This document shows positions 2,930 to 41,636 of a stretch of DNA of 64,000 nucleotides, piece by piece. A program made the translations under genes and the position numbers. The notes beneath the pieces were generated by a model, which saw only the letters and a program-made list of their open reading frames with translations, did no database searches and was not told the DNA's origin. The stretch comes from Naegleria gruberi (lineage: Eukaryota). Within the stretch, counting starts at the first letter, position 1. Each line of letters opens with the position of its first letter. The stretch lies in NCBI GenBank assembly GCA_000004985.1, contig GG738907.1; one strand, written 5' to 3'.

Positions 2930-3112
2930 TTTTTTTTTCAATTTTTTAAAAATGTCTTTGAACAATTCCCTTCAACTTTAATAAAACATTTTCAATAGAA
3001 TGGAAAAAAAAAGACCAATGGAAAACACCATAAATTTCGAGCAAGGTTCTATATTAATGAATCAGAGTCACAGTTTAAATGTTTGCAATGAAATGTAGCT
3101 ATGACAAATTTA

Positions 3113-6100
3113 TTAATTTAAAAATCTTTTTAAATAATGATCTAATAATTGTCTCAATTCAATTGCTTCTTCACCATGGAAATAAGAAAGGAAGTATGAT
3201 AATTGTCCTAACCATTTCTTAATCATGTCATTATTTGATCTATTATTAAAAAGTTGTCTCTTATCACTTGTATTATTATTATTATTACTATTATTACTAT
3301 TACTATTATTATTATTATTATTAATATTATTACTATTATTATTAAAAGAAGGAAATAAAAAAATAGAACCAAATTTAAATAAAGAAATGTAAAGTAAATT
3401 TGCCAAATCAAAAATTAATTTACCAACAACATTTCCTTTTAAACCCCAAAATACTAATTCATCTGTTAAAAATCTAATATCATAATATAAAAATGTAAAT
3501 TCTTTTTGTTTTAAAATATCATTAATAATATCAATGGTAATATTTTTTGATTGTTGTTCATCTAAATTTTTTAATGATAAATAATATTCACCATATTTTC
3601 TAAATTTAGTAAGTGTAAAAACAATTGAATCTTCTAATGCATTATAAACAGGTGATGATTTTGAACCAGGTGTTGAATAAAATTGTGTAATTGATAATCC
3701 TTTTGAAAATTTAATTGTTAATAATTTCTTTTCACGTATATTATCATAATTATAAATAAATAAATGTTCTTCAATATATTTAGTTTCTATTTTTAGTAAT
3801 TCTGATAAAATTGGTTTAATTACAATTGTATGACTTGATTCAGGTGGTATTGTATATATTTTAAATTCATCTGTTGTAATATAATTATTTGTATCTACTT
3901 GTATTTTAAATAATTTACAAAAATCATCTCTAATAATATATAATAATGGTTGTTTAAATAAATTCTTTAATGTAATTGGATATTTATCTATTGTATTTCC
4001 ATTTATATCCATCATTATATTATTATCATTTCCAATAAATGTTACTTCTTGTTTTGTTAAATACATTTGTGGTTTAACACATGTTGATGTTACTTTTATC
4101 ATTCTTTGATAATCTTTAAGTAATTTACATTTAATAAATATTTCAAATTCATCTAGAAATATTTCATTATCTCCATTATTATTATTATTATTATTATTAT
4201 ATTCATTATTATTGTTATATTCATTATTGTTATTATTATTGTTATCATTATATGATGATGATGATGATGATACTTTATATAATAAATAGACACGTGTTTT
4301 AGATTTAGGTTCAACACGTAAACTATAAAATGGTTTTAATGATGTTAATGAAAGTGAAAAATGTAATTCTGTTGTTTCAATATTATGATTAGATGTAAAA
4401 AAGAATTCCAATGGTGTATCATTTGTTAAATTTACAATATCAATAAAACGATGTCTAATTAATGTATCAATAAATGCTGTTCCTAAATTCATTTTCAAAT
4501 AATTTTCATTATTATTACTATTATTACTATTAGATGAATTATTATTATTAATAGATGTATTATTATTATTATTAGATGAATTATCATTAATTAATAAAGA
4601 TTCATCATTACCATCAACTCTAATATCAAATAATTTTTCAGGATCTTCAATTTCACTTAAAATTTCCAAACTTGTTCTCAAAGTTTTAAAATCCAATGGA
4701 TTATTTAAATTTTCAATAACAATATAATCAGTAAAACTTTCAATACTATCAGTTTTAAATGTAAATGTTATTTGATGTGAATCAAATTGATCAATTAAAC
4801 CACTTGTATGACTAATTTTAAATGGTGATGATTGTGTATTAATTTTACCTGATATAGAAAATATTCTATATTTAACATCTTGTGGTGTTGGATTTTCTAA
4901 TGTTATTTTACTTTCAACTATTTTACTTGATAATGTTCTACGATGTCTCAATTCAATTTCATATCTATTCTTTTTATCTATTTGTCTACATCCTTTTAAT
5001 ATTAATATACTTGAATTATTTGTTGTATTATTTGTATTATTTGTATTTGTATTAGTAGTAGTAGTAGATGTATTGGTATTGGTTATATTAGCAGCACTAC
5101 CTCCAGGACTATTACTACTATTTAGAGGAGTTGGTGTACTTGATTCCAAATTTGATAATGTTGGTGTTGGTGTTGTCAATATATCAACACTTGTACTTCC
5201 ACTATTCAAAGTATTATTACTAATATTATTATTATTAATATTAATATTACTATCAATAGTTAAAGATTTAAAATAATCAACTGCTTTAACATTTAAATGT
5301 ATAGATTGAGTAGTTAATGGAGCATTATCATCAATAACAGATAATTGACAATATTTTCTCAATAATGAAAGTTTTTCCAATACTTGTTCTCTATCTTGTA
5401 TAGATGAATAATCAATAAAAACGCTAATAACAGTTGATAAAGCAGGTTCTAATAAACCCTTTTCAGGAAATATAGTAATATTAATACCATCTAAATTAAT
5501 AGTTGAATCATTTACATCTTGAAAATTATTAGTTGAAAATGTAAAGAATTGTTTCTTAATTTTAAAATATAAAGCTTCATATTTCTTTACATTTTTAATT
5601 GTAAATGATTCTGATAATGTTCTTGTTGATTCAAAATAATTATTTGGTAATTTAAAATCTAATTTTTCTAATGAAAGTGAAAATGAAGGATATTGTACAA
5701 TACTTCCAAATATATCAAATACTTCTTTTGGTTGATTTGAAGATTCAAATATAAATTTACCAAAATGAATTAATTTTAAATCATTTAAATCTTGATTTGG
5801 TGAATTAATTTGTGAATATAATTCTTGTGGTATTGTTGAATTTTGTTTAGCTCTACATCTAATTCTAATATATAATGTTGATTTCTTTTCAAATTTATAT
5901 TCTTTAATTGGCATACTTGTTGAAAAATCTAATAAATCTATTTTTAAAAATTGACAAATTCTTGGATTATCAAAAATTACTTTAAATTTTGAATCAATTT
6001 TAAAAGAACTATTATTACCAATAGAAAGTGTTAAATCACTTATAGATGAAAATAATGTTGGTGATTTCATAATTTCTGGATATTGAAGTGGTGGCATTCT

Positions 6101-6160
6101 AATTGTTGTTGTATTTGTTAATCCTGTAAAATCCCAAACACATTGTGTTATATTTGCCAT
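3113..6160 (-). CDS. giant multi-ASH/PapD-like repeat protein, C-terminal segment (segment 4 of 4)
   Basis: 1015-codon ORF ending at stop 3113. It contains I/L-x-F-G beta-sandwich repeat motifs (IHFGKFIF...) and Asn/Thr low-complexity linkers. Its reading frame is open upstream of the ORF-track M and overlaps the end of the 6238..8586 ORF in a different frame. Confidence 0.6.
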   Translation of the reverse strand: MANITQCVWDFTGLTNTTTIRMPPLQYPEIMKSPTLFSSISDLTLSIGNNSSFKIDSKFKVIFDNPRICQFLKIDLLDFSTSMPIKEYKFEKKSTLYIRIRCRAKQNSTIPQELYSQINSPNQDLNDLKLIHFGKFIFESSNQPKEVFDIFGSIVQYPSFSLSLEKLDFKLPNNYFESTRTLSESFTIKNVKKYEALYFKIKKQFFTFSTNNFQDVNDSTINLDGINITIFPEKGLLEPALSTVISVFIDYSSIQDREQVLEKLSLLRKYCQLSVIDDNAPLTTQSIHLNVKAVDYFKSLTIDSNININNNNISNNTLNSGSTSVDILTTPTPTLSNLESSTPTPLNSSNSPGGSAANITNTNTSTTTTNTNTNNTNNTTNNSSILILKGCRQIDKKNRYEIELRHRRTLSSKIVESKITLENPTPQDVKYRIFSISGKINTQSSPFKISHTSGLIDQFDSHQITFTFKTDSIESFTDYIVIENLNNPLDFKTLRTSLEILSEIEDPEKLFDIRVDGNDESLLINDNSSNNNNNTSINNNNSSNSNNSNNNENYLKMNLGTAFIDTLIRHRFIDIVNLTNDTPLEFFFTSNHNIETTELHFSLSLTSLKPFYSLRVEPKSKTRVYLLYKVSSSSSSYNDNNNNNNNEYNNNNEYNNNNNNNNGDNEIFLDEFEIFIKCKLLKDYQRMIKVTSTCVKPQMYLTKQEVTFIGNDNNIMMDINGNTIDKYPITLKNLFKQPLLYIIRDDFCKLFKIQVDTNNYITTDEFKIYTIPPESSHTIVIKPILSELLKIETKYIEEHLFIYNYDNIREKKLLTIKFSKGLSITQFYSTPGSKSSPVYNALEDSIVFTLTKFRKYGEYYLSLKNLDEQQSKNITIDIINDILKQKEFTFLYYDIRFLTDELVFWGLKGNVVGKLIFDLANLLYISLFKFGSIFLFPSFNNNSNNINNNNNNSNSNNSNNNNNTSDKRQLFNNRSNNDMIKKWLGQLSYFLSYFHGEEAIELRQLLDHYLKRFLN

Positions 6161-6237
6161 TATTGTTACATTTAATATATTATTAGGATTATTAATATTT
6201 TCAAATTGAAGTGAAAGTGAAAGTAAATTATCATTTT

Positions 6238-8586
6238 CTAATAAATTATTAGAATATTATTATTAGAAAAATTATTAAAATCTTTAAATTCACTTGTTTT
6301 TAAAATACAAATAATAGTTTTTTGTCCTTTAGGTGGAATGGTCCATTTTGTTCTACTACTCATTTCATTACTATTATTACTACTATTACTACTATTACCA
6401 GGACTATTAGTAGATAATGTTGGTGATGATTGATCAAAGTGTTGTAATAAATTCATAGTTGTTGTTGAAGTAGTAGAACCACCACCACCAGATGATGTTG
6501 GTGTGATTGGACTCATTGAAGAATAATTTGAAACAAATTCAATTCCTTTTGGTTTTGAAATTAATTTAACTTTTGATAAAACATCTGAATGATCATTATT
6601 TAAAACTATTTGAAATTTTCTATCAGACCATTTATCAATATAACCAATTTTACCTAAATTAATTGTATTTGATCTTAATGAAACTTCAGAAATACCCATT
6701 TGAATATGAACATTAATTAATTTTAATGCTCGTTGTTCATCATCTGATAAAATTAAAGATCTTTGAAGTTCAACATAATTCTTTTTCAATAAATTTTCAG
6801 TTTCATTATCATTCATTGTTAAAGGTAGACCTGATAACATTGTTACAAGTGTTAATTGTTCACCTGCAGGTAAAATGAATGGTTTACCCTTATTTGGATA
6901 TTGTGTAAATGAATTAAATTGTTTAATTCTTTCTAATTTTTCAATTGAATTTAAAGATGATAATTGTTTAGATTTTTGTTTTTTAACAAATACAATCATA
7001 TCAATATCACTATTAGGTATTAAAATCATATCATTTTTAGAAATGTTTGATAATTGAAATTCTTGTACACCTAATATTGTTGAATTTCTAATTTCATTTC
7101 TTAATTCTTCATCTGAATCTTGTAAATAATCATATTCTTCAACAAGTTGATTTGCTAATTTTTGTAAATGTTGATGTGGAATTCCTGTTATTTTTACAAT
7201 TTGATCATTTTCATCTTGTTCTTTAATAACATAAACATTTGAAAATACCAAAGCATCAACTCCTGAACTATCAGCTTGTAAATTATTACGTAATGATTTA
7301 CGATCATCAACAAATGCACGTATCGCTATTTTACTCACTTCACTATTATTATATGAAGATGATTTGTTTATAATTGTAAAATAATGATCATGAAGTCCAC
7401 TTGTTAATGGATTGAATGTAAATTTTAATACCTTCTTGTTATTTTCATCATCTTCATTAGATGATGTATTATTTGTAGTAGTAGTAGATAATGTATTAGT
7501 AGATGATATGTTATTAGTATTATTACTTGTTGGAATAGGACTATTAATAGGAGTATTATTATTACTATTATTATTATTATTGGAAGAATTAATTTTACAT
7601 CCAATTAAATTACCAACTCTCTCTGAATCATTATTTAAATATAATTCATTTGGTGAAGATGAAATAATTTCATATTCTAAAGGTAAGAATTGATTTCCAT
7701 TTGATAAAGTAAATTGTGAATTAAATGTTTTTAAATTACTTGACCAACCAAAATCAATAAATTGATTATCAATATTTAAAATACTTTTACCAACAAATGC
7801 TCTAATTTGAATGACTTGAGAAAATATTTGTTTTTCTTCATTTAAAACATTTAAAACAATACTACTTGAAAATGAAATACATTTACCCTTCTTTGCTAAA
7901 TTAGAATTTAAATGTGGTTTTAATCCAACATGAATAGTAATAGTTTGTTGAGGTTCTATTTTAATGATTGATTTTTCTGTTAATAAATTTTGTAAATTTT
8001 CATCTGAATAAATTAAAATTTGTTTTTTAGAATTGGAAATTAATTTCAAATTCAATGAATAATCTTTTGTATTTGTAATTTTAAAATTTGAAACTTTTGA
8101 TAAATTATCCAATATTGTTGTTGATGTTGTTGTTGTTGATGTTGGTGATAATTCTGATAAATTAGATGTTGTAGTTGTTGTTGATAAAGATGATAAAGGA
8201 TGAATATAACAAAATCCAAAATTTAAAATTCGATCTTGATTAATATTTTCAATATGAATAGGTGAATCAACTATAACTCTACATTTGATTAAACATTTGT
8301 GAATTATTTTAGTTTTTAAATCTTGAATTTGAACTGAAAATGTTTGAATTCCAGGTAAGAAATATTCGCATGTTAATTCAATAATTTCATGTTTACATGG
8401 TGCAATAGTACCATTCTTAATATTAAATTGAACTTGATAAGATTCTTGTTTTGTTGAATCTAAAATTACAAATCCTGCTTCTTCACTTTTAGATTCATTA
8501 TTAATTGTTAATTTACATTTAATCTTTTCACCAATAGAATTAACACCTAAATCAATTTCATTTGGAACAATTTGAATTGATTTCAT
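6238..8586 (-). CDS. giant multi-ASH/PapD-like repeat protein, segment 3
   Basis: 782-codon ORF with repeated ASH-like motifs (LNFGFCYIHPL, IDFGWSSNLKTFNSQFTLSNG, INLGKIGYIDKW). Its frame is open upstream into the 8789..12214 ORF region. Confidence 0.6.
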   Translation of the reverse strand: MKSIQIVPNEIDLGVNSIGEKIKCKLTINNESKSEEAGFVILDSTKQESYQVQFNIKNGTIAPCKHEIIELTCEYFLPGIQTFSVQIQDLKTKIIHKCLIKCRVIVDSPIHIENINQDRILNFGFCYIHPLSSLSTTTTTSNLSELSPTSTTTTSTTILDNLSKVSNFKITNTKDYSLNLKLISNSKKQILIYSDENLQNLLTEKSIIKIEPQQTITIHVGLKPHLNSNLAKKGKCISFSSSIVLNVLNEEKQIFSQVIQIRAFVGKSILNIDNQFIDFGWSSNLKTFNSQFTLSNGNQFLPLEYEIISSSPNELYLNNDSERVGNLIGCKINSSNNNNNSNNNTPINSPIPTSNNTNNISSTNTLSTTTTNNTSSNEDDENNKKVLKFTFNPLTSGLHDHYFTIINKSSSYNNSEVSKIAIRAFVDDRKSLRNNLQADSSGVDALVFSNVYVIKEQDENDQIVKITGIPHQHLQKLANQLVEEYDYLQDSDEELRNEIRNSTILGVQEFQLSNISKNDMILIPNSDIDMIVFVKKQKSKQLSSLNSIEKLERIKQFNSFTQYPNKGKPFILPAGEQLTLVTMLSGLPLTMNDNETENLLKKNYVELQRSLILSDDEQRALKLINVHIQMGISEVSLRSNTINLGKIGYIDKWSDRKFQIVLNNDHSDVLSKVKLISKPKGIEFVSNYSSMSPITPTSSGGGGSTTSTTTMNLLQHFDQSSPTLSTNSPGNSSNSSNNSNEMSSRTKWTIPPKGQKTIICILKTSEFKDFNNFSNNNILIIY

Positions 8587-8788
8587 TGTTGTTGTTGTTA
8601 ATGATGATGATTGATTACTATTAATTAATTTTGTTACTGATTTGTTATTGTTTGGTATTAATAATTTTGATATGGTTGATTTGTGTAATGATGATATATT
8701 ATTATTATTAGTATTATTAGTATTAAATGTAGTACCAGTTGTTATTGTTGCAGTATTGTTATTAGAATTATTTGTAAGGGTAGTATTA

Positions 8789-11700
8789 TTAGTAGTACCA
8801 ATGGTAGTAGTAGCTACTACTATATAAAGGTGTTAATGGAGTACTAACATTTGAACCTGTTGAACTACTACTACCACTGTTTTGAGTAAAATTCTGGAAT
8901 GATTTGATATCGAAATGTACAATAGAACTCAGAGTGACCATCTTTTGTTCATCTGTATTTCTATTTTCATAAACTAACATTCTACATATACCATTCTCAA
9001 ATGCAATATTTGGTGTTTCTATTAATAGTGGTTTAATCTTTAAATTAATAACTTGAGACATTCTAGGTGGAATTGAAAATCTAATTCCATTCTCTTCAAT
9101 CTTTTTGAATTTTCTTTGTTTTTTACCTTCATCATCTGATTCAGAAACAAATAATGAATCTTCAATATTATTAGTAGTAGAATTACCTGTTATTGTTGTT
9201 GCAATAGTTGGAGTATAATCATCAAAATTTAATTCCTTTTTAATTTCATTAATTCTTTCAGTTAATTTTTTAATTTTTGATGACTTGTTCTTTCTAACAC
9301 AAATTCTATATTTGTGTTCTAATTTTTCTAATTCTGCTTCTAATTTTTCAATTTCAGTACTTTGACTAACTTGTTCCAATTCATATTCAAATTCAAATTT
9401 ACAAAAACTAAAACTACAATAATCAATTTGTGTTTCAAATATTCTTCTATTCTTACTCATATTTGTAACAACAATTTTTTTAGAAAGTGAAAATTGATTC
9501 AATAAAATATTTCCAAAATTAATATCATTAGATTTCAATGTAAATTTTTCATAATTTCTAATATCTGCCTTTACAATAATATTAATACTATCAGATTCAT
9601 CAAGTACATTTTCAAATGTTAAAGTTTCATTAAATACACCTGGTAATGATGGTTTAAAATAGAGTTGAATATCACGTGAACCATATGGTCTTACTAAACC
9701 ACACCATGATAAATTTAATGAATCATCTAACATGTCTAATATTTTAATATCATTAGATGCAATTGAACCTGATCTTTTTATACGAAATAATAATGGTACT
9801 TCAGATCCATTTGAAATGGTTATTGTCTTTTTACGATCTTCTACATTGGTAATGGATCCAAAATTTATATTCTTTTGTGCAATTTCCATCATGGATTGAC
9901 AAATTTTAGATTGAATTGTTAATTCTCTAGGTGGTAATGTAAAATCTGTTTGTTCATTATTTGTATCATAATCTATTAATTCAATAAATAATTTTTCAAA
10001 ATTCTTTTTAATTGCATTCATTGAATTTGTATTATTATTATTGGTATTATTAGTATTGATATTACTACTACCAGTAGTAGTTGTAGATGAAATAGATGTA
10101 GTAGTGTTTGTTGAAATATTATTGAATGAAAAATCACTGTATAAAGATAGAGGTGAAGAATTATTTAAATTAATTGAAGTAAATTTGCTATTTGTACTTT
10201 TTGGTCGATAGGTAATGTAAATTTCAGTTGAACTTGTTGGTCCAATTGAAATTGTGTCACATGGAATGAGAAATTTCAAATCATCAATTGAATTTGAAAG
10301 TTTCTTTTTAAATTCCAATTCATCTCTAATAATCATTTCTTCATCAACATTTTGTGTAGTATCAAATAAAGATTCTTGAATTTTTTCATAAGTTGAAACT
10401 AATTGATCACAATATTCTTGTGGATTAACTTGTTCAGTAAATAATTCATCTGTTACTGATGAATATTCACTATCATCAATCATTAAATTATCATCACTTC
10501 CATCACTGGTTTCATCACTATCATAAATACTCAGTGGTGTTTTTAATTCATCAATACCTTCAAAATGATGAATATTTAACTTTGAAACGTTGGGTTGAGT
10601 CATTATTGATTGTAAATATTCTAAATTTGTTGGATCATTTAATTGTGAAATAAATTTATCATCCATTGATGTTGATCTCTTCAAGGTATTTGATGATTCA
10701 TCCTTCAACTTTTTAAGATAGGGTGATTTTGGTGTGAGTACTGATGAAACACCTGTATTATTAGTACTTGCACTATTATTTGATGTTGTTGTTATGGTAC
10801 TCAATGAAGAAAGTGGTGTTAAATTAGATTGACTTGAAACTCTTTGTAAATTTGAAGTTACAATTTGTTTAACCTTCTTTTTTCTTCTTTTATGAAGAGG
10901 TGGTGGTGTTGATTTAAATTGTTGTTCACTTTCATTCATACTACTATCATCTGTAAATTGTCGATTATTTGTTGTTGTTGTACTACTGTGTGGACTTATT
11001 GTATCATCTTCATCAAAATGATGATGCTGATGAACATTGGATGAAATTAAATTGTAATGATCAGATTGTGAACCACCACCACCACCACCAGATGAATAAT
11101 CCTGATTTGTTATTGTTGTCGTTCTTTTAACTTTAAAAGTTGAAATTTCATTTGGAGATGAAGATTTAAATTTCAATGTAATTGGTTCATCTGAAATGTT
11201 TGAAATTTGAAATTTAGAAAGTGAAATGCCATTCAAAGCAACAACACCAAAATTAATTGATTTTGCAAAATTATGTTGTGAAGTAGTATGTACATCATAA
11301 TATTTACAATGAAAATTTAACATATTTCTATCAATATTATTAGATTCAACTTCAATAATTTGTTCATTCAATTTGTTACTTTCATTTACAATTGTAATTT
11401 GTTTTCTATAATTTGGATTAACTCTTCTAGGTGATAATCTAAATGTAATTCTAATAAATTTATGAGGTGAAATAATTGCTGATTTTGTTTTACATGTTAT
11501 TACTTTAGATGTAAATTGAACTGAAATTCTTGTTGCCAAATCAGATCTATTATAAATTGTTACTGATGCAAATTTAATATCTCCAATGGTTGAATCTCCA
11601 AATTTAATATTAGAAGGTGATACTTCAATAATAGATGTACATGTATGTGCAATAGCTTTAATACTTGCAACTACATTCATTGTATTAGAACTATTATTAT

Positions 11701-12214
11701 TATTATTGGAGGTAGTATTTGTTGATAATAATTGATCATTCATCATTATGGATGATGTATTTGATGATGCTGATGATGTATCAATAGCACTTGTTGTATT
11801 AGCAGAAGTATTTGAAGCACTATTAGTAGTATTACCACTGCTACTACTACTATTACTACTACTTGTACCACCACTCTTCTTACATGTGATTAGAATGGTA
11901 TTCTTTGATTTGGTGACTGAAGTATCTGTAGTGAGTGAATTTTCATCCAATTTAACATGAGCACAAACCATTATCTTTCTTTCAGCTTTAGGTTTAAGTG
12001 AAATTTCTTGAATTCTTTCTCTATAAATTTGTTGAGTATTTGGTAGACAAGTTGAATTGAAATGTGGATTTGAATGATCCATTGAAAGTAAAAAATCATG
12101 TAAATTTGGATCATACAATTCAAAATGAATAAAATCAACATTTTCATGATTATTATGAGAATGTTGATGATGGTGATGATGATGAAAACCATGTTGTTCA
12201 TTATTTCCAATCAC
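8789..12214 (-). CDS. giant multi-ASH/PapD-like repeat protein, segment 2
   Basis: 1141-codon ORF. The ORF-track start is a GTG, not a real start, and the frame stays open upstream. It has many repeats of the pattern I-x-F-G-x(10-14)-I/V-x-I/V-x-N-x-S (IKFGDSTIGDIKFASVTIYNRS, INFGVVALNGISLSKFQISNIS, INFGSITNVEDRKKTITISNGS, INFGNILLNQFSLSKKIVVTNMS), separated by Ser/Thr/Asn linkers and poly-His. Confidence 0.6.
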   Translation of the reverse strand: MIGNNEQHGFHHHHHHQHSHNNHENVDFIHFELYDPNLHDFLLSMDHSNPHFNSTCLPNTQQIYRERIQEISLKPKAERKIMVCAHVKLDENSLTTDTSVTKSKNTILITCKKSGGTSSSNSSSSSGNTTNSASNTSANTTSAIDTSSASSNTSSIMMNDQLLSTNTTSNNNNNSSNTMNVVASIKAIAHTCTSIIEVSPSNIKFGDSTIGDIKFASVTIYNRSDLATRISVQFTSKVITCKTKSAIISPHKFIRITFRLSPRRVNPNYRKQITIVNESNKLNEQIIEVESNNIDRNMLNFHCKYYDVHTTSQHNFAKSINFGVVALNGISLSKFQISNISDEPITLKFKSSSPNEISTFKVKRTTTITNQDYSSGGGGGGSQSDHYNLISSNVHQHHHFDEDDTISPHSSTTTTNNRQFTDDSSMNESEQQFKSTPPPLHKRRKKKVKQIVTSNLQRVSSQSNLTPLSSLSTITTTSNNSASTNNTGVSSVLTPKSPYLKKLKDESSNTLKRSTSMDDKFISQLNDPTNLEYLQSIMTQPNVSKLNIHHFEGIDELKTPLSIYDSDETSDGSDDNLMIDDSEYSSVTDELFTEQVNPQEYCDQLVSTYEKIQESLFDTTQNVDEEMIIRDELEFKKKLSNSIDDLKFLIPCDTISIGPTSSTEIYITYRPKSTNSKFTSINLNNSSPLSLYSDFSFNNISTNTTTSISSTTTTGSSNINTNNTNNNNTNSMNAIKKNFEKLFIELIDYDTNNEQTDFTLPPRELTIQSKICQSMMEIAQKNINFGSITNVEDRKKTITISNGSEVPLLFRIKRSGSIASNDIKILDMLDDSLNLSWCGLVRPYGSRDIQLYFKPSLPGVFNETLTFENVLDESDSINIIVKADIRNYEKFTLKSNDINFGNILLNQFSLSKKIVVTNMSKNRRIFETQIDYCSFSFCKFEFEYELEQVSQSTEIEKLEAELEKLEHKYRICVRKNKSSKIKKLTERINEIKKELNFDDYTPTIATTITGNSTTNNIEDSLFVSESDDEGKKQRKFKKIEENGIRFSIPPRMSQVINLKIKPLLIETPNIAFENGICRMLVYENRNTDEQKMVTLSSIVHFDIKSFQNFTQNSGSSSSTGSNVSTPLTPLYSSSYYYHWYY

Positions 12215-12236
12215 TGTACTTGTATTACTACTACCA

Positions 12237-13496
12237 CTACCAATTGTTATTGTTATTACTACTATTACTACTATTATTATTATTACTATTATTATTATTA
12301 GAATTATTAGAATTACTAGTCAATCCAAAAAAAACATCAAAAGTATCAGTACTACTTTGATTTCTTAAAGTAATTAATTTAAAAGAAGTTTGACCTTTAA
12401 AAAATTCACCAAAATCTAATTTTGAAATTGTTTGTTTACCAAATTCATCTAAAATTAAAATATTTCTAATTGTATTTAAACCAATTAATTGATTATTTTC
12501 AAATTCAGTTGAAAAAACAATTGATTTAATAATTAAATTTGATAAAATTTCATTATTAAATTGTAAATTAACATTTAAATTAATTTCACCAATAATTTTA
12601 GGTATAAAAATAACGTTAACTCTCATTGAAGAATGTGCCATAATTAAATTATCCATTTTTAATATTTTACCTGTTTCATATTCTGTAAATGTTAAATCTG
12701 CAATAAAATTTTCATTTTCTTGTAAAATTTCTTTAATTGGATTTGAACTTGATCTATTTCTATTTATATTTGAAATTGAATTTTTAATATTTACATTTGA
12801 ATTTGAAATTAAATTAAAATAAACATTTTCTTCTGAAGTATTATAAATTGTAAATTCTTTAACATATTTACGATTAATTATTGAACTTCCAATTTCAATT
12901 TCATTTTCATCAATTTTAATTTTAGATTCATTTAATTGTATTATAAATGGTAATTTAATTTTATCAAAATTTTGTAATGTTATTAAATCTAATATAATAT
13001 TTCCATTTAAAGAATGTAATAAATTATTTTCATTTTTAGTTGATTTTAAATTAATTTTAAATATATTATTTTTATATTTTTTAATTGTTAATTGTTGTAA
13101 ATTATATAATGTATTAAATAATTGATTAGAAAATTCATCATTTTCAAATGTTTGAAATGAAATTAAAGTTTGTTGACTTGATAATCTAATTACTAAATCA
13201 TTTGATGTATGATTTTCAATTTTTATAATTTTAGATGAATTTTCTCTTGAATTTTTAAATATGATCGGATCATTAATAATTGTTGTATTTAAATTTAAAT
13301 TTAATTTTACAATTATTCTTTCTTCTATTGTTGTGTTATTATTATTATTAACAGATTGAATGACTTCCTTGATGAGAATATATTCTTCAGTGTCGTCATC
13401 TAATTGTTGTTGTTGCTCCGTATTGTCCATTGTCGTCATCACAGTCATAATATTATTATTACTAGTGGACAAGGACGAAGGAGATGTGGAGGACAT
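12237..13496 (-). CDS. giant multi-ASH/PapD-like repeat protein, N-terminal segment carrying the start codon
   Basis: ATG at 13496-13494 in aaaaaaaaATG context. 419 codons with an ASH-like repeat (LDFGEFFKGQTSFKLITLRNQSS). It ends in a poly-Asn tract whose stop overlaps the next ORF in another frame. Confidence 0.6.
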   Translation of the reverse strand: MSSTSPSSLSTSNNNIMTVMTTMDNTEQQQQLDDDTEEYILIKEVIQSVNNNNNTTIEERIIVKLNLNLNTTIINDPIIFKNSRENSSKIIKIENHTSNDLVIRLSSQQTLISFQTFENDEFSNQLFNTLYNLQQLTIKKYKNNIFKINLKSTKNENNLLHSLNGNIILDLITLQNFDKIKLPFIIQLNESKIKIDENEIEIGSSIINRKYVKEFTIYNTSEENVYFNLISNSNVNIKNSISNINRNRSSSNPIKEILQENENFIADLTFTEYETGKILKMDNLIMAHSSMRVNVIFIPKIIGEINLNVNLQFNNEILSNLIIKSIVFSTEFENNQLIGLNTIRNILILDEFGKQTISKLDFGEFFKGQTSFKLITLRNQSSTDTFDVFFGLTSNSNNSNNNNSNNNNSSNSSNNNNNW

Positions 13497-13830: not shown

Positions 13831-14109
13831 TTATTCAACGCTTCTTACAGGTCTCTTATTATAATAGTCTAATAAAGTTTCATCATTTGATAATCTTTCT
13901 TCTAAATATTCTTTGAGTGTTTTAGCCTTTTCAGCTTGTCCACCAAACTTTTTCAAAATAGTGCTATCATCAAAGTTCTTTCTCAATTCACTTAACATAT
14001 CACTTTCATAAACAAATGAAATCTTTTCAGTTGTCTTTTCATCAAGGAACAATTTAGCTACTGCCCAAGCAGTTGAGAATAACCATGGTGCACGCATTAA
14101 TGTTGCCAA
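13831..14109 (-). CDS. Sec14-like (CRAL-TRIO) protein, exon 4 (C-terminal)
   Basis: Encodes LATLMRAPWLFSTAWAVAKLFLDEKTTEKISFV, the typical CRAL-TRIO C-terminal helix, up to the stop. The acceptor is ..attatag after a 42-nt intron. The ORF-track M here is really a TTG Leu codon. Confidence 0.75.
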   Translation of the reverse strand: MATLMRAPWLFSTAWAVAKLFLDEKTTEKISFVYESDMLSELRKNFDDSTILKKFGGQAEKAKTLKEYLEERLSNDETLLDYYNKRPVRSVE

Positions 14110-14151
14110 CTATAATTATTATTAATATTTAAATTTTGTAAATAAATTTAC

Positions 14152-14336
14152 CTTCAATCTTTCAGGGAAATAATTTTGACAAGTTCCAAGAATTGATTTA
14201 TCCAATTTAGTATCTACACATGATAATGACCATCCTTTATAATCAATAACAACAACAAATTTTTCTAACTTTCCACCAGTTTGTAATCTTAATTCATGGA
14301 ATGCAACTTCTAATACAAATCCAACAAGTTCTTCAA
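14152..14336 (-). CDS. Sec14-like (CRAL-TRIO) protein, exon 3
   Basis: Encodes EELVGFVLEVAFHELRLQTGGKLEKFVVVIDYKGWSLSCVDTKLDKSILGTCQNYFPERLK, the CRAL-TRIO lipid-binding core (ID-KG-S, NYPERL motifs). It is bounded by a 47-nt intron upstream and a GTAAAT donor downstream. Confidence 0.7.
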
Positions 14337-14383
14337 CTATTTTATAATATATTCAAATGATAATAGTATAATATAATACATAC

Positions 14384-14449
14384 TCAATTCATATGGCTGT
14401 AAAGTTCCTGGTACAAAGTTTGAAATTGCTAAACATAAACATGGACATC
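14384..14449 (-). CDS. Sec14-like (CRAL-TRIO) protein, exon 2
   Basis: 66-nt exon after the acceptor ..aataatag. It encodes GCPCLCLAISNFVPGTLQPYEL (compare SEC14L DRDGCPVWYDIIG) and is in phase with exon 1. Its donor is GTATGT. Confidence 0.55.
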
Positions 14450-14662
14450 CTATTATTCATAATAACAACAACAAGTATTATTAAAAACCATGATCATAGC
14501 GTCATAATGATCATCATTTTAAAATTCAATGATACCATTCGGAATAGTACAACACCAACACCAATAGTAGTAGTAATATTAGTAATAGTAGAATGATATT
14601 ATATAGTTAATATATTGAATAATAGGAATTATCAACAAACCTTCTTTATCAGAACCCATAAA

Positions 14663-14892
14663 NNNNNNNNNNNNNNNNNNNNNNNNNNNNNNNNNNNNNN
14701 NNNNNNNNNNNNNNNNNNNNNNNNNNNNNNNNNNNNNNNNNNNNNNNNNNNNNNNNNNNNNNNNNNNNNNNNNNNNNNNNNNNNNNNNNNNNNNNNNNNN
14801 NNNNNNNNNNNNNNNNNNNNNNNNNNNNNNNNNNNNNNNNNNNNNNNNNNNNNNNNNNNNNNNNNNNNNNNNNNNNNNNNNNNNNNNNNNNN
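14663..14892. other. assembly gap (N-run) inside intron 1 of the Sec14-like gene
   Basis: 230 N characters. The sequence on the two sides is near-identical (see findings). Confidence 0.95.
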
Positions 14893-14976
14893 GGAATAGT
14901 AGTACAACCAACACCAATATTAGTAGTAGAATGAATGATATTATTATATAGTTAATATATGNAATAATAGGAATTA

Positions 14977-15322
14977 TCAACAAACCTTCTTTATCAGAAC
15001 CCATAAAACATAAAAATTCTTCAAGTTTAGGAAATAATTCAACAAATCTAGTTAATTTTGATTGATCTAAATTCATTCTTTGTCTCCATCTAATTAATTC
15101 AATAATACCACTGATAGTCTTATCAACATTTCCACTGTAGGCTCTCAACCATCTAACATAAAAAACATCATCATTAACTTCAGATCTTTGCATAAAATCA
15201 TTTAATTTTGGTAAAAGATCAGCAATATCTGGATATTTAGAAGAAAGATTAGCAATGGTAAGCTTATTCTTTACTTCAACAATCAATTTTTGTTCTTCCG
15301 ATGTAAAGACGAGAGCATTCAT
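14977..15322 (-). CDS. Sec14-like (CRAL-TRIO) lipid-transfer protein, exon 1
   Basis: ATG at 15322. Encodes the CRAL-TRIO N-terminal helical region (FYVRWLRAYSGNVDKT...IRWRQ) through FMGSDKEG. A GTTTGT donor at 14976 follows a split codon. Confidence 0.7.
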
Positions 15323-15544: not shown

Positions 15545-18382
15545 ATGTATTTCAACCCTCATATTAAATACGCCTATACTAATAGATATTTAAAATTAAA
15601 TAAAAAAATTCAAATGATTTCGGAGCAAACAACATCTCAAACAGAGGAACAATCATTGGGTTCTTCTTCATCATCAATAACAAGTACTACCACTACTACT
15701 GCTACTACTAGAACATATGATGTAGAAATGGAAAGGATGAGAAGAGATTATTTTAATCATGATGAAAGTATTGTACATTTAGATCATGCAGGTAGTACAT
15801 TAACAAGTAGTAAATGTTTAAAGAAAGCCTTTGAACAATTATTTTTCCCTAATAATAATGATAATAATAATGAGGATGAAACGAATGAAACAAATGATAA
15901 TGATGATACATTAATTAATAATAATAATAATAATAATAATACAATGAAGTATGATCATAGTAATATGATGATATTATCAAATCCACATAGTGATGGATCA
16001 TATTCATCTAGACAAACAAATTTAATAATAACAAAAGCAAGAGAATTAATTTTAAATATATTTAATACAAGTTTAAAAGATTATGATTTAGTATTTACAT
16101 TTAATGCATCTCATTCTATGAAAATTATAAGTGATTGTTTTCCATCAAATGAAAATCATTCAATTGTTGGTTATTTAAATAATTCTCATAATTCTTTAAT
16201 TGGAAGTTTAAGATCAATTCCATCAAAACAATGTCTAGTTTGGAATAATTTAAATGATTACCAATTTTATTTAAAAAATAATTATTTAAATGATAATAAT
16301 ATAAATGATAATAATTTAAATGATAATTCAAATAATACAAATAATTTAAGTTATAAACATTTAATTGGAATATCAGGTGAATGTAATAGTACAGGTAGTA
16401 AAATTGAAGATTTTTCAATATTTAATGAAATTTATAAAAATTATCCAAATATATATACAATATTAGATACATCAAAATATTCAAGTACAAATGTATCAAT
16501 TGATTTATCTAAATATAAACCTGATTTTATAGTAGCAAGTTTATATAAATGGTTTGGATATCCAACTGGATTAGGAATTTTATTAATTCGTAAAATTAGA
16601 ATTTCAAAAATTAATTTTCAACCAAGAAATAATTATTTTGCAGGTGGAAATGTTCAAGTTAATACTTCAACTGAACCTTTTTTTATGAAATATAGAAATG
16701 ATTCATTTCATTCTTTTTTAGAATTTGGTACTATTCCTTTTATAACTATATGTGAAATGTTTTATTATTTTAAACAAGTACAATTAATGTATTCTTTAAT
16801 TTTTAATAATAATAATAATAATTTAAATAATAATTTAAATAATAATAATAATATAAATAATAATAATAATAATTTAAATAATAATATAAATAATAATTTA
16901 AATAAAATAGAAAATAATTTATTAAATTTTAGAGAAATATTTAAAATAATAGAAGAACATACAAAAATATTACAAGAATATTGTATAAATGAATTATTAA
17001 AATTAAAACATTATAATAATAAATTATTATGTAAAATTTATAATTTAAAAAATAAATCAAGTATAATTAATTTAAATTTTTATACAAGTAAAGAATTAAT
17101 GATTGGATATTCACAAATACAAGAATTATGTTCATTAAATAAATTTAATATTAGAAGTGGATGTTTTTGTGTACCTGGTTCATGTCAAGAACTTTTTAAT
17201 TTAAAATTCATTGATTTAATTAATAATTTTGAAAATGGTAAAATATGTTGGAATAATTCAATGGATATTATACCTGGTTCTAAAAATATACCAACTGGTA
17301 GTGTTAGAATATCTTTTGGTTATTCTTCTATTAAAAATGATATTGATAAATTTATTCATTTTATTAAATTAAATTTAATTGATAATAATTTTAAAAAAAT
17401 TAATTATAATTTAAAATCTGATAATATTAAATTATCTCATTTTTATATTTATCCTTTTAAAAGTTGTGCTCCTTTTAAAATTTTTAATAATAATAATTTA
17501 AATAATTTAAATGATTTAAATAATAATAATATAATTAAAACATGGGAATTAATTTCTAATAGTGGAGCATATTTAGATAGAGAATGGGCTATTTTAGATG
17601 AAAATGATTCAATTTTAAATTTAAAAAAATGTACAAAACTAGCTAAAATATTTCCAATTATAGATATGAATAATAGAATTGTAATTTTAAAATTAAATGA
17701 TAATGATAATAATAATTATGAAACTATTGAATTTAAAATAGATGAATATCCAATACAATCACTTGAAAATAAAATATGTGGAAGAGAACATGATTCACTT
17801 GTTTATGGAAATGATGTTAATGAAAAACTTTCTAATTTTTTAGGAATTTCAGTTAAAGTTATAAGAAGAAAACCTTTTAATAATAATAATATTAATATTA
17901 ATAATAATTTAAATAATTCAAATAATTCTAAAAATATTGAATTAAATAATTTAAATAATTGTAAAAATCAATCATCATATTCAAATGAAGGTAATAAGGG
18001 ATTATTTTTAGTATTAAATAAATCATCATTAATAGATTTAAATAAAAGATTAGGATTGAATGATATAACAAATATAGAATGGTTAATAGATAGAATGAGA
18101 CCAAATATAGTAATTGAAGGATTAGAAGAATATGAAGAAGATGAAATTAAATCTATTTATATTAATAATATTCCCTTTCAAATTAATTCACAATGTTCAC
18201 GTTGTACAATGATTTGTATAAATCCAAATACTTTAATACAAGAAGAAGAACCTTTAAGAACTTTATATTCTTATAGAAGATTTGGAAATGGTGTTTTATT
18301 TGGTGTTTATGCTAGTCCATTCACCACCACAAATCAATATTCAATTCAATTAAATTTTAATAATACTAATAATAATGAATAA
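15545..18382 (+). CDS. mocos: molybdenum cofactor sulfurase (MOCOS/ABA3/HxB family)
   Basis: Continuous 945-codon ORF. The N-terminus has a NifS-like class-V aminotransferase signature (VHLDHAGSTL, LYKWFGYPTGLGILLIRK). The C-terminus has a MOSC domain with an SQCSRCTMICINPNT cysteine motif. An alternative start, ATG 15614 (MISEQ...), is possible. There are Asn-rich Dictyostelium-type insertions. Confidence 0.85.
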   Translation: MYFNPHIKYAYTNRYLKLNKKIQMISEQTTSQTEEQSLGSSSSSITSTTTTTATTRTYDVEMERMRRDYFNHDESIVHLDHAGSTLTSSKCLKKAFEQLFFPNNNDNNNEDETNETNDNDDTLINNNNNNNNTMKYDHSNMMILSNPHSDGSYSSRQTNLIITKARELILNIFNTSLKDYDLVFTFNASHSMKIISDCFPSNENHSIVGYLNNSHNSLIGSLRSIPSKQCLVWNNLNDYQFYLKNNYLNDNNINDNNLNDNSNNTNNLSYKHLIGISGECNSTGSKIEDFSIFNEIYKNYPNIYTILDTSKYSSTNVSIDLSKYKPDFIVASLYKWFGYPTGLGILLIRKIRISKINFQPRNNYFAGGNVQVNTSTEPFFMKYRNDSFHSFLEFGTIPFITICEMFYYFKQVQLMYSLIFNNNNNNLNNNLNNNNNINNNNNNLNNNINNNLNKIENNLLNFREIFKIIEEHTKILQEYCINELLKLKHYNNKLLCKIYNLKNKSSIINLNFYTSKELMIGYSQIQELCSLNKFNIRSGCFCVPGSCQELFNLKFIDLINNFENGKICWNNSMDIIPGSKNIPTGSVRISFGYSSIKNDIDKFIHFIKLNLIDNNFKKINYNLKSDNIKLSHFYIYPFKSCAPFKIFNNNNLNNLNDLNNNNIIKTWELISNSGAYLDREWAILDENDSILNLKKCTKLAKIFPIIDMNNRIVILKLNDNDNNNYETIEFKIDEYPIQSLENKICGREHDSLVYGNDVNEKLSNFLGISVKVIRRKPFNNNNININNNLNNSNNSKNIELNNLNNCKNQSSYSNEGNKGLFLVLNKSSLIDLNKRLGLNDITNIEWLIDRMRPNIVIEGLEEYEEDEIKSIYINNIPFQINSQCSRCTMICINPNTLIQEEEPLRTLYSYRRFGNGVLFGVYASPFTTTNQYSIQLNFNNTNNNE

Positions 18383-21607: not shown

Positions 21608-24600
21608 ATGTCAAAGCTTTTTGGATTAAATTCAACAGCATCAGGTCATTCAAGAGACGAAGAAGAGGATGATCAAAATATTGAAGATTATCAATCATCA
21701 TCATTTAACGTAGATAGAGCAACAACAAGTTATTCAAAACCTATTCAAATTAATAATCAAATGGATAATAATTCATCATCACCTAATTCCTATAATAATA
21801 ATAGTGGTGGTAAACAATTGGGTAATAAACCACCTCCACCACTTCCACCACCTGGTACTTTTACTGATAACATACAAATCAATACCATTAACACCAACAA
21901 CACCAACAACATTAACACCAATCAAAATAATTTATCAAGTTCTCCACAATTTACTTTAGGTAAAAGTTTTGCTAGTCTTCAAAATTCTGAAGCAAGATCA
22001 AGGGCTAGTTTTCAACCATCCATGATGACAAATGTTAAACCAGCAAGAAAAGATACAAATGCTCATAGACTTGTTCATCAAGTATCATCTTCATCATCTG
22101 ATAATAATTTAACAAATAATTTAACAACCAATGATAATGATATAACAAGTAATTTAAAATGGGCTAAAATTGATAGTGGATTATATTTAAATGAAAAGAT
22201 TGAATTAATTTGGAATGATGAAATATTTAATAATAATAATAATAATGAAAATGAATTATTTAATATTTATTTATTTTCATTTACACGTATTATTGGTACT
22301 TATTTTGATCAATTTGGATTACAAAATTTACAATTATTACAACAAGAAGAATCAACTATTAGATTATTAGATAAAATATATGATCAATTATATTCAAGAG
22401 TATATACTATTGTATTTAAAATACCAAATTTAAATATTTTATTACAATATATTAATAATAGAAAAAGTAGAATTTTATATATTTTAAAAACATTTTCAAT
22501 TAATTTAATTTTAAATTCTTTATTATTAGATTTTATTAATTATTATAATGATGGTAATAATTTAAATAATAATATTTTAAATTTATGGTCTTTATTAGAA
22601 CAATCTACTATTATAAATAATAATACAAATAATATTGATACTATTACAAATGATAATACCACTTTAAATCCTCTTTATAATGATATTCAACAACAATCAG
22701 AACAACAATTAGAATCTATTACAAATAATAATATCAATAATAATATCAATAATAATAATAATACTATTAATACAATTAATAATAATGAAAGAAGAAGAAC
22801 ACTTGAATCAGAAGAGAGTGAATCAGATTTAGTATTAGATAAAGAAGATTTTGGAATGGCAGTATTTACAGCAGGTAGAGATGATTTTAGATTATCAACT
22901 GTTTCATCCGATTCATATGATCCAACATCAACTGATTTAACTATTAAATCATCAGTTAATAATAATTATGTATTACCACCACTTCCACCTTCAAACAAAC
23001 CAAAAAGAACCAATGAAATTGACATTACTAATAATACATCATTATCATCATCACCACCACCACCTATTATTCCACAAAACAAACCTCAAAAACCTCAACC
23101 ACCTCAATTCATTCAACCACAACAACAACAACCAATTATTCAACCAATTGTTCAACCATCAACAACTGAATCTGAAAATATACCAAGTGGTATTGGTGGT
23201 AATGGAATGGTTAGACCTCCTAAACCTCAAACTAAACCAAAAATTAATGATAGTACTTCATCCAATAATAATACTACATTATCTTCCAATAATAATAGTA
23301 GTAATAATAATTTATTATCTGTTAATAATACAAGTACAAATACAAGTACAAGTAATACAAGTAGAAATAATAGACATTTAACAGATGATCAAAATAGAAT
23401 GCAAAAAGCCAAATCAGTTTCATTAGATTTTGATAGATTTGGTGGACTTGGTACAACACCACCACATGCAGTTGATAATTTAATTGTAAAGAAAACTAAA
23501 AGAGTTCAAAATAGATCAAAACCAACTGCAACAAGTAAAAATGAAGTTAAAAAAGAATTGGCAAGAGTTGAACAAGATGCTCAAGAAACTTCACTTAATA
23601 ATATTCCAATTATTATTACAAATAATACTACTACAAATAATAATAATACTACTACAAGTAATACAAATAATAATACAAGTACAACAACAGGTAAATCATC
23701 ACCTAGAGATAATAAGAATAGTAGTAAACCAACATCTACTTATATTCCAATTATTACTGGACCAATTCCAATTATGGGAGGTGTACCAATGATGGGAATA
23801 GCAGGTGGTATATTAAAAAAGAAGAATAGTGAAAATCAATTGAAAAAGGATGAAAATATTGATCAATATACTTCAACAAGTAATGTTAGTAGTGGAGTAG
23901 TGGATACAAGTCCACGTACAGGAGGTAATAATACTAGTAAATTTACACCACCTGTTGCACCACCAATTCCAGGTAAGAAACCACCAACCACAACAACATC
24001 CAATTCTAATAGTAGTAGTAGTACTACTAGTTCACCAATTGTTAGTAGTAGGATTGAAAATTCACCACAAGTTAATACTGAACCACCACCACCACAACAA
24101 CCAAAGAGAGCTGTAGCACCACCAATTCCAAGTAATAATAATAATAATAATAACAAACCTCAAACTAAACCACCTCCACCACCAATCAATGAAGAACAAT
24201 CAACTATAGGTAAACAACCACCTCCACCACCACCAGAAGATGAAGAAGAAAATGTTACTACTACTACAAATAATACAAATAATACAAATAATAGACCACC
24301 TATTCCATCAGGATTGAAAAAGACAACAGCTCCTCCACCTCCACCACCAGAAGAAGATGATAATTCACTTCCATCTAAACCATCCAATCCACCACCACCT
24401 ATTAATCCATCTATATTAGAATCAAAACCTAAAAAGACACCACCTCCACCTCCATCATCATCATCTACTGCTGCTACTACTACTGATATGAATGATAGTA
24501 ATAATAGAGGATTGAAAAAGACAACACCACCTCCACCTCCACCACCAGAAGATGATGATGAACAAGATAATCAAACAGCAATAACATCACCATCATCAGT

Positions 24601-25756: not shown

Positions 25757-25991
25757 NNNNNNNNNNNNNNNNNNNNNNNNNNNNNNNNNNNNNNNNNNNN
25801 NNNNNNNNNNNNNNNNNNNNNNNNNNNNNNNNNNNNNNNNNNNNNNNNNNNNNNNNNNNNNNNNNNNNNNNNNNNNNNNNNNNNNNNNNNNNNNNNNNNN
25901 NNNNNNNNNNNNNNNNNNNNNNNNNNNNNNNNNNNNNNNNNNNNNNNNNNNNNNNNNNNNNNNNNNNNNNNNNNNNNNNNNNNNNNNNNNN
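25757..25991. other. assembly gap (N-run)
   Basis: 235 N characters. No flank duplication is evident. Confidence 0.95.
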
Positions 25992-33971: not shown

Positions 33972-34097
33972 NNNNNNNNNNNNNNNNNNNNNNNNNNNNN
34001 NNNNNNNNNNNNNNNNNNNNNNNNNNNNNNNNNNNNNNNNNNNNNNNNNNNNNNNNNNNNNNNNNNNNNNNNNNNNNNNNNNNNNNNNNNNNNNNNN
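33972..34097. other. assembly gap (N-run) inside RhoGEF coding sequence
   Basis: 126 N characters. Both flanks are coding, in frame-compatible low-complexity sequence. Confidence 0.95.
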
Positions 34098-34316
34098 GTT
34101 CGGAATTTAGAAAATAAAGTAGTAACAGATCGAGTCTTCTTTTTATGAAGTGAAGAAGAAGATGAAGGTGAAATTAATTGTTGTACATCATTGGGTAAAT
34201 CTGAATATTCTACTTTTTTAAAATAGGTAGATGGTATTTCAAATAATTGATTATTTGATATCTCATTCACTTGATATCCATTATTATTATTATTATTGAT
34301 ATTGATATTGATATTT
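34098..34316 (-). CDS. RhoGEF protein, N-terminal low-complexity segment (start of exon 2)
   Basis: After the acceptor ..tatatatag (34317-34318) the frame reads KNININ...GYQVNEISNNQLFEIPSTYFKKVEYSDLPNDVQQL... into the gap. The phase fits the proposed exon 1. Confidence 0.4.
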
Positions 34317-34496
34317 CTATATATAATGATGATGATGATTATTATGGAGATGACAATAATAATAATATTATTATTTAATAATGATGATGATGGTAATAAC
34401 ATTCATTACATTCATGAAAGATAATAATAATTATTATAATTTAAAGATAACACAAATTCATCTATTAAATAATAAATATAAATTTTAATAACATAC

Positions 34497-41514: not shown

Positions 41515-41636
41515 CATGTGAATAAGAACTCTATCTTGCAATTCAAATTCCTCCAATTCAAAGAATGAAAATGTATTAAATATACTCAATAGAAATGAAA
41601 GAAGAAACTCAATAATGGTGTCTATCATTTTTTTTA
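41515..41636. repeat. direct repeat copy 1 (about 120 bp)
   Basis: About 85% identical to 42228..42345 (catgtgaataagaactctatcttgcaattcaaattcctccaattcaaagaatgaaaatgtattaaatatactcaatagaaatgaaagaagaaactcaataatggtg...). Confidence 0.7.

What the first reader, a model, noticed from the sequence alone, without database searches (positions are those of the whole stretch)
14521..15004. N-gap flanked by near-identical sequence: unmerged overlapping contig ends
Positions 14551-14662 (before the gap) and 14893-15004 (after the gap) are the same sequence apart from a few read-end-quality differences: ggaatagtacaacaccaacaccaata...ttatcagaacccataaa versus ggaatagtagtacaaccaacaccaata...ttatcagaacccataaaaca. 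The gap is therefore artificial. The true locus has one copy, which makes intron 1 of the Sec14-like gene roughly 190 nt instead of 527. The exon-1 donor region (gataaagaag|gtttgttg) is present in both copies.
Basis: seen in the sequence. Interest (0 to 1): 0.5.

Follow-up and report, generated by a model that had tools for sequence, protein, structure and literature searches.

The report
Unmerged contig overlap at scaffold gap
The 230-N gap inside the first intron of a Sec14-like gene is almost certainly an assembly artefact: the two contigs it separates overlap by about 120 bases and were never merged, so this is ordinary draft-genome noise and not biology.

Summary
The last 122 nt before the N-run (14541-14662) and the first 115 nt after it (14893-15007) are the same sequence: 106 identical of 126 aligned columns, blastn E 5e-32, local score 152 against a shuffle maximum of 35. 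The homology runs to both gap edges with zero offset, in the same orientation. This is the geometry of two contig ends that overlap.

The sequence occurs nowhere else in the window, and the other two gaps show no such overlap. The arms carry the last 22 nt of exon 1, the GT donor and about 100 nt of intron 1 of a minus-strand Sec14/CRAL-TRIO gene. The spliced protein aligns without a gap across the exon 1/2 junction to three homologues, so nothing coding is hidden in the gap.

Merging removes 345 nt. Intron 1 becomes 191 nt (184 with the other arm) instead of 536.

The differences are not just base-call noise. They are mostly indel events of up to 11 nt in a TAG/TAA-rich tract, all in the first 70 nt of the right contig. 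Allelic heterogeneity is at least as likely a cause of the failed merge as a poor contig end.

A genuine tandem duplication is not excluded (about 0.1). No independent same-species sequence was reachable. Interest is low.

The parts
14541..14662 (.). Left arm: the last 122 nt of the contig that ends at the gap. On the minus strand it reads as a copy of the last 22 nt of exon 1 (14662-14641), a GT donor (14640-14639) and about 100 nt of intron 1.
14663..14892 (.). Run of 230 N (scaffold gap). Judged artificial: the true distance between the contig ends is an overlap of about 115-122 nt.
14893..15007 (.). Right arm: the first 115 nt of the contig that starts after the gap. It is homologous to the left arm. 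All differences lie in 14893-14962.
14962..14962 (.). The only isolated N in the 64-kb window, lying inside the right arm (TTG in the left arm, TGN here). It marks an uncertain consensus at this contig end.
14597..14662 (.). 66-nt core of the left arm, identical to 14942-15007 apart from the TTG/TGN site. It is the anchor for merging; deleting 14663-15007 (345 nt) restores a single copy.
   Evidence: (family D1)
14986..15322 (-). Exon 1 of the Sec14/CRAL-TRIO-like gene (ATG at 15322, ends ...GATAAAGAAG, phase 1).
14450..14985 (-). Intron 1 as assembled: 536 nt, GT...AG, containing the gap and the left arm. After merging it is 14450-14640, 191 nt (184 nt if the right-arm version is the true one).
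14384..14449 (-). Exon 2 (66 nt). It follows exon 1 directly at the protein level (FMGSDKEG|CPCLCL...).
14152..14336 (-). Exon 3 (185 nt). It is preceded by the 47-nt intron 2 (14337-14383).
13831..14109 (-). Exon 4 with the stop codon. It is preceded by the 42-nt intron 3 (14110-14151).

Best explanation
The locus is single-copy, and both the gap and the second copy are products of assembly. Two contigs covering intron 1 of a Sec14-like gene overlap by about 115-122 nt. The assembler or scaffolder did not recognise the overlap, because the two ends disagree in a roughly 55-nt TAG/TAA-rich tract. It linked them through read pairs and inserted an estimated 230 N. The true sequence is obtained by deleting 14663-15007 (345 nt). 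Intron 1 is then 191 nt, or 184 nt with the other version, and the protein is unchanged. Shown: the dovetail overlap, its significance, its uniqueness in the window, and the absence of any missing coding sequence. Inferred: the cause of the failed merge. I slightly favour real heterogeneity, meaning two alleles that differ by slippage-type indels in the low-complexity intron tract, over a simply erroneous contig end. The differences are mostly indel events of up to 11 nt. The most likely source, Willaertia magna, has a published draft made from very deep Illumina data with a de Bruijn assembler using word size 64 and bubble size 100. Such an assembler would leave a heterozygous bubble with arms of about 115-120 nt unresolved.
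For: The arms end and start exactly at the gap edges, with a score of 152 against a shuffle maximum of 35. blastn gives E 5e-32, and there is no other full-length copy in the window. The other two gaps have no flank overlap. The only isolated N in 64 kb falls inside the right arm. All differences lie in the outermost 70 nt of the right contig, and the last 45 nt of the left contig match perfectly. The gene model of 288 aa hits CRAL_TRIO at 1e-30 and aligns without a gap across the exon 1/2 junction to three homologues. The N. lovaniensis orthologue has continuous coding sequence there. The other introns of the gene are 47 and 42 nt. Genuine repeats elsewhere in the window look different: their homology fades at both ends inside continuous sequence, and their copies differ by substitutions (41515/42226) or by substitutions plus an 8-9-nt deletion (the tRNA pair). 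For the cause, the differences comprise 3-6 indel events of 1-11 nt. The window GC of 26.6% matches W. magna at 24.8-25% (PMC6892926) and not Naegleria at 33-37% (PMC12482156). Gene neighbourhood is shared with N. lovaniensis. The W. magna c2c draft used 2x150 Illumina reads at about 1000x, CLC with word size 64 and bubble size 100, and GapFiller (PMC6892926). Heterozygosity and variable ploidy are reported in the sister genus Naegleria (PMC9928731).
Against: No reads and no independent assembly of the same species could be examined, so the single-copy state is inferred from geometry and not observed. The scaffolder's positive gap estimate of 230 nt differs from an overlap of about -120 nt by about 350 nt, which requires the estimate to be poor. 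A repeat can itself cause a contig break, so dovetail geometry is not absolute proof. Genuine repeats of about 120 nt at about 86% identity do exist elsewhere in the window. The assignment to W. magna, and to that particular assembly pipeline, is inference from GC content, homology and synteny. In a textbook de Bruijn bubble the right contig would share about 63 nt with the upstream sequence, not the 9 nt seen.
Confidence: 0.85

Rival explanations
1. This is a genuine recent tandem duplication. A segment spanning the exon-1/intron-1 boundary is truly present twice, about 345 nt or more apart, with real unassembled sequence between the copies. The intron would then carry a second, orphan copy of the 5' splice site.
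For: The scaffolder estimated a positive gap of 230 nt. The two arms differ by about 14-16%, as diverged paralogous copies might. Real local repeats of similar size and identity occur elsewhere in the window. The 66-nt shared core is about one assembler word long, if the assembly used word size 64, and could in principle create a graph branch that breaks contigs there (PMC6892926).
Against: The homology is cut off by the gap edges on both sides with zero offset, instead of fading within assembled sequence as it does in the genuine repeats. The differences are confined to one end and are mostly indels, next to 66 nt of near-identity, which is not the scattered substitution pattern of the genuine direct repeat at 41515/42226. 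No coding sequence is missing. A 536+ nt intron would be more than ten times the gene's other introns. The other gaps in the window show nothing similar.
Confidence: 0.1
2. The locus is a single-copy overlap artefact, but the right contig's first 50-70 nt are simply wrong, because of a low-coverage or low-quality contig tip or a mis-extension by a gap filler in low-complexity sequence. It is a sub-variant of the best explanation that differs only in why the merge failed.
For: All differences sit in the outermost 70 nt of one contig, and the window's only isolated N is there. A gap-filling step was part of the likely pipeline (PMC6892926).
Against: Several of the differences are multi-base indels (up to 11 nt, with one single-base gap in most alignments), unlike typical base-call errors. 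If the data are about 1000x Illumina, random error at a contig end is unlikely to give a clean alternative sequence.
Confidence: 0.38
3. The similarity is chance resemblance between two AT-rich, low-complexity stretches.
For: The window is 73% A+T, and the variable part of the arms resembles common TAG/TAA-rich tracts that give many short hits.
Against: The score is 152 against a shuffle maximum of 35. blastn gives E 5e-32, and the next-best hits in the window are 36 nt or shorter at E 2e-5 or worse. The 66-nt core is not low-complexity and includes 22 nt of exon.
Confidence: 0.01

Closest known systems
Gap-flanking duplications from unmerged contig overlaps ('negative gaps') in draft scaffolds
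   Same: The end of one contig repeats the start of the next, in the same orientation. The homology abuts both edges of the N-run, and the N-run length is an estimate, not real sequence.
   Different: Nothing essential differs. The overlap is imperfect (about 84-86% identity, with indels), which is why it was not merged. Many such cases are exact overlaps of k-1 bases.
Heterozygous bubbles or haplotig duplication in assemblies of heterozygous or polyploid genomes (the class removed by haplotig-purging tools; from my own knowledge)
   Same: Two versions of one locus, differing by indels in a low-complexity tract, are laid out one after the other instead of being collapsed. The arm lengths of 122 and 115 nt exceed the bubble size of 100 reported for the likely assembly.
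   Different: It is tiny, at about 120 nt instead of kilobases. Allelic origin is not shown, because no read depth or phasing was available.
Genuine tandem segmental duplications, such as the 122-nt direct repeat at 41515-41635 / 42226-42347 in this window
   Same: Similar length and overall identity of about 86%, and direct orientation.
   Different: In the genuine repeat the homology fades into unrelated sequence at both ends inside continuous assembly, and the differences are scattered substitutions. Here the homology is truncated by the N-run on both sides, and the differences are clustered indels.

Membership tests
Unmerged overlapping contig ends (assembly artefact) | The homology abuts both edges of the N-run: the left copy ends at the last base before the gap and the right copy starts at the first base after it. 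| tested here: met
   The local alignment spans 14541-14662 and 14893-15007, and the gap is 14663-14892.
Unmerged overlapping contig ends (assembly artefact) | Same orientation and colinear order, so the two contigs can be merged into one consistent sequence. | tested here: met
   The match is direct (plus/plus). Merging by deleting 14663-15007 preserves exon 1, a GT...AG intron and the reading frame.
Unmerged overlapping contig ends (assembly artefact) | The similarity is far above chance and is not part of a dispersed repeat. | tested here: met
   Score 152 against a shuffle maximum of 35. E 5e-32, and there is no other hit longer than 67 nt in the window, all weak.
Unmerged overlapping contig ends (assembly artefact) | Nothing that the locus requires is missing from the gap. 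| tested here: met
   The spliced 288-aa protein aligns without a gap across the exon 1/2 junction to three homologues. The N. lovaniensis gene is continuous there. There is no Rfam match in the intron.
Unmerged overlapping contig ends (assembly artefact) | Reads or an independent assembly span the junction and show one copy. | not testable with these tools
   No same-species sequence was reachable. The homologue search found only proteins at 60% identity or less. Exact-product look-ups found nothing. Two metagenome scans were empty.
Allelic (heterozygous bubble) origin of the two arms | The differences have the character of real polymorphism, not sequencing error. | tested here: inconclusive
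   There are 3-6 indel events of 1-11 nt in a TAG/TAA-rich tract, which fits slippage alleles. But they all lie at one contig tip together with an N, which also fits a bad contig end.
Allelic (heterozygous bubble) origin of the two arms | Each arm is supported by about half the read depth, with both haplotypes seen in the reads. | not testable with these tools
   No reads were available.
Genuine tandem duplication | Repeat boundaries are visible inside assembled sequence, with homology ending by divergence and not at an N-run. | tested here: not met
   Both inner boundaries are cut off by the gap. This contrasts with the genuine repeats.
Genuine tandem duplication | Real spacer sequence lies between the copies. 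| not testable with these tools
   The spacer is 230 N.
Sec14 / CRAL-TRIO lipid-transfer proteins (the host gene) | A CRAL_TRIO domain detectable above Pfam's curated threshold. | tested here: met
   PF00650, E 1e-30, 107 bits against a cut-off of 22.6, residues 104-253. Identity is 58-60% to CRAL-TRIO proteins, including that of Naegleria lovaniensis.

The most novel reading that the evidence does not exclude
Both arms are real genomic sequence. One possibility is a young tandem duplication of the exon-1/intron-1 boundary that leaves a second, orphan 5' splice site inside intron 1 of the Sec14-like gene. The other is two alleles whose intron differs by several slippage indels, which would be direct evidence of heterozygosity (diploidy or polyploidy, and possibly sex) in this Willaertia-like amoeba.
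Probability: 0.1. Interest if true: 0.15.

Novelty: not a real feature. Interest (0 to 1): 0.05.

Why it matters
The practical consequence is small. The scaffold is 345 nt too long here. Intron 1 of the Sec14-like gene is 191 nt (or 184), not 536. The second copy of the exon-1 end and splice donor is spurious, and the predicted protein is unaffected. The case is a useful reminder that N-runs in short-read drafts can hide overlaps instead of missing sequence, and that such overlaps inflate intron-length statistics and can create false duplicated exons or splice sites. If the two arms are alleles, the site is a ready-made marker for heterozygosity in this organism, which is a minor point.

Tried and rejected
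1. I tried to find independent same-species sequence to settle the copy number, without success.
   - The homologue search with the spliced protein returned only three proteins at 60% identity or less.
   - Exact-product look-ups of the two neighbouring ORFs found nothing.
   - Two exact-pattern scans of metagenome contigs were empty.

2. I tested for a hidden exon in the gap and rejected it. The protein alignment is gapless across the junction, and the N. lovaniensis gene is intronless at that point.

3. I tested for an intronic RNA gene that might explain the long intron. There is no Rfam match at E up to 1.

4. I tested for a dispersed repeat or chance low-complexity match and rejected both.

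5. I asked whether overlapping flanks are a general feature of this assembly's gaps. They are not: the gaps at 25757-25991 and 33972-34097 have unrelated flanks.

6. I considered Naegleria gruberi (a Sanger assembly) as the source. I rejected it on GC content: 26.6% here against 33-35%.

7. I considered whether contig-end lengths fit a pure de Bruijn bubble at word size 64. The left contig extends 66 nt past the last indel, which fits, but the right contig shares only 9 nt upstream, which does not. The exact assembler mechanism is therefore left open.

Full report
**Observation**

The region contains a run of 230 N at 14663-14892. The 122 nt before it (14541-14662) and the 115 nt after it (14893-15007) are homologous in direct orientation.

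- Local alignment of the 400-nt flanks scores 152, against a mean of 25 and a maximum of 35 for 200 shuffles.
- blastn gives 86.2% identity over 123 columns, E about 5e-32.
- Global alignments give 106 identical of 126 columns, with 3-7 substitutions and 3-6 gap events depending on the scoring.
- The gap-proximal 66 nt of the left arm (14597-14662) equal 14942-15007 except TTG versus TGN. That N, at 14962, is the only isolated N in the 64-kb window.
- All other differences lie in the first roughly 50 nt of the right arm.

Three of its numbers need correcting:

- The left arm starts at 14541, not 14551.
- The right arm ends at 15007, not 15004.
- The assembled intron is 536 nt, not 527.

**Geometry**

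The alignment stops at the last base before the N-run and starts at the first base after it. The homology is therefore cut off by the contig ends on both sides, not ended by divergence. This is what two overlapping, unmerged contig ends look like.

Three controls support this reading:

- The other two gaps in the window (25757-25991 and 33972-34097) have unrelated flanks.
- The arm has no other full-length copy in the window. The remaining hits are short matches to TAG/TAA-rich low-complexity tracts.
- Genuine repeats of similar size exist in the window but behave differently. They are a 122-nt direct repeat at 41515/42226 and an inverted tRNA-Trp duplicate at 59820/61275. Their homology fades into unrelated sequence at both ends within continuous assembly. 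The copies differ by scattered substitutions in the direct repeat, and by substitutions plus an 8-9-nt deletion in the tRNA pair.

**Gene context**

The arms lie in a minus-strand gene whose four exons give a 288-aa protein with a CRAL_TRIO domain (Pfam E 1e-30).

| Feature | Coordinates (minus strand) | Length |
|---|---|---|
| Exon 1 | 15322-14986 | 337 nt |
| Intron 1 as assembled | 14985-14450 | 536 nt |
| Exon 2 | 14449-14384 | 66 nt |
| Intron 2 | 14383-14337 | 47 nt |
| Exon 3 | 14336-14152 | 185 nt |
| Intron 3 | 14151-14110 | 42 nt |
| Exon 4 | 14109-13831 | 279 nt |

- All introns are GT...AG.
- Each arm carries the last 22 nt of exon 1 (TTTATGGGTTCTGATAAAGAAG), the GT donor and about 100 nt of intron.
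- Using the donor in the left arm (14640) makes intron 1 191 nt. With the right-arm version it would be 184 nt.
- The protein aligns without a gap across the exon 1/2 junction (FMGSDKEG|CPCLCL) to its three detectable homologues, which are 52-60% identical.
- The Naegleria lovaniensis orthologue has uninterrupted coding sequence at that point. Its only intron, 78 nt, is elsewhere.

Nothing coding is hidden in the gap, and the protein is the same under either model. No known RNA family is found in the intron.

**Likely source**

- The best homologues include Naegleria lovaniensis.
- The gene's neighbours in the window are a DUF5578 gene and a giant CFAP65/CFAP74-type Ig-repeat gene. The same neighbours flank the N. 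lovaniensis orthologue.
- The window is 26.6% G+C. Sequenced Naegleria genomes are 33-37% (PMC12482156; PMC9928731). The sister genus Willaertia magna is 24.8-25% (PMC6892926).

The source is therefore probably W. magna or something very close. This is an inference.

The published W. magna c2c maky draft was built from 2x150 Illumina reads at about 1000x. It used CLC Genomics Workbench with word size 64 and bubble size 100, followed by GapFiller.

**Why the overlap was not merged**

The differences are mostly indels, in events of 1 to 11 nt, in a TAG/TAA-rich tract. This looks more like replication-slippage variation than base-call error.

If the data are deep Illumina, a clean but wrong 50-nt contig tip is not expected from random error. 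Two alleles differing in this tract would form a graph bubble whose arms, about 115-122 nt, exceed the reported bubble size of 100. Such a bubble would be left unresolved. Heterozygosity and variable ploidy are documented in Naegleria.

On the other side, all differences and the lone N sit at the extreme tip of one contig. The right contig also shares only 9 nt with the upstream sequence, not about 63, so a pure bubble model does not fit exactly. A mis-extended contig end, for instance from gap filling in low-complexity sequence, remains a good alternative.

I slightly favour the allelic cause, but the data here cannot decide.

**Rival: real tandem duplication**

This rival would need the contig breaks to fall exactly at the inner repeat boundaries. 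It would also need an unassemblable spacer in an otherwise assemblable intron, and an intron more than ten times longer than the gene's other two. In its favour are only the scaffolder's positive gap estimate and the existence of other real repeats in the window. I give it about 0.1.

**What could not be done**

No same-species sequence was reachable. The homologue search returned nothing above 60% identity. The single-copy conclusion therefore rests on geometry and context, not on a spanning read.

**Verdict**

Its coordinates need correcting, and the cause of the differences is uncertain. This is an ordinary draft-assembly artefact with no biological novelty.

Noticed in passing
window 59820-59890 (-) and 61275-61337 (+): There is a tRNA-Trp(CCA) gene and an inverted second copy that lacks 8 nt (TCGCAGCC, the 5' strand of the anticodon stem). 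The second copy shares about 30 nt of upstream and about 16 nt of downstream flank with the first. Rfam tRNA scores are 57.5 and 41.4 bits, and ARAGORN calls only the first. The second is probably a damaged duplicate or pseudogene.
   Followed up: partly
window 41515-41635 and 42226-42347: A genuine direct repeat of 122 nt at 86% identity, 711 nt apart, in apparently non-coding sequence. The differences are substitutions and the homology fades at both ends. Its nature is unknown.
   Followed up: partly
window 24310-24361 and 24508-24559: A 52-nt direct repeat at 94% identity inside the 1296-aa ORF 21608-25498. It is probably an internal coding repeat.
   Followed up: no
window 33972-34097: A 126-N gap with unrelated flanks that interrupts a minus-strand ORF (33896-34402 reads through the N-run). 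Unlike the gap studied here, real coding sequence may be missing.
   Followed up: no
window 25757-25991: A 235-N gap in apparently intergenic sequence downstream of the 1296-aa ORF. Its flanks do not overlap.
   Followed up: no
window 653-13496 (-): Five consecutive long minus-strand ORFs (770, 1015, 782, 1141 and 419 aa). Weak CFAP65/CFAP74/Cep192-type Ig-like domain hits were found in three of the four scanned, none in the 782-aa ORF, and the 770-aa ORF was not scanned. They look like one giant flagellar-associated gene split by short introns or frame changes. A 3562-aa counterpart lies next to the CRAL-TRIO gene in N. lovaniensis, but in the opposite relative orientation.
   Followed up: partly
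window 15545-18382 (+): A 945-aa ORF with aminotransferase class V, MOSC_N and MOSC domains (molybdenum cofactor sulfurase-like). It lies between the Sec14-like gene and the DUF5578 gene, and no such gene separates them in the N. lovaniensis locus.
   Followed up: no
whole window: G+C is 26.6%, with long Asn-rich low-complexity coding tracts. Combined with Naegleria-like homology and synteny, this points to Willaertia magna or a close relative as the source, not a Naegleria species.
   Followed up: partly
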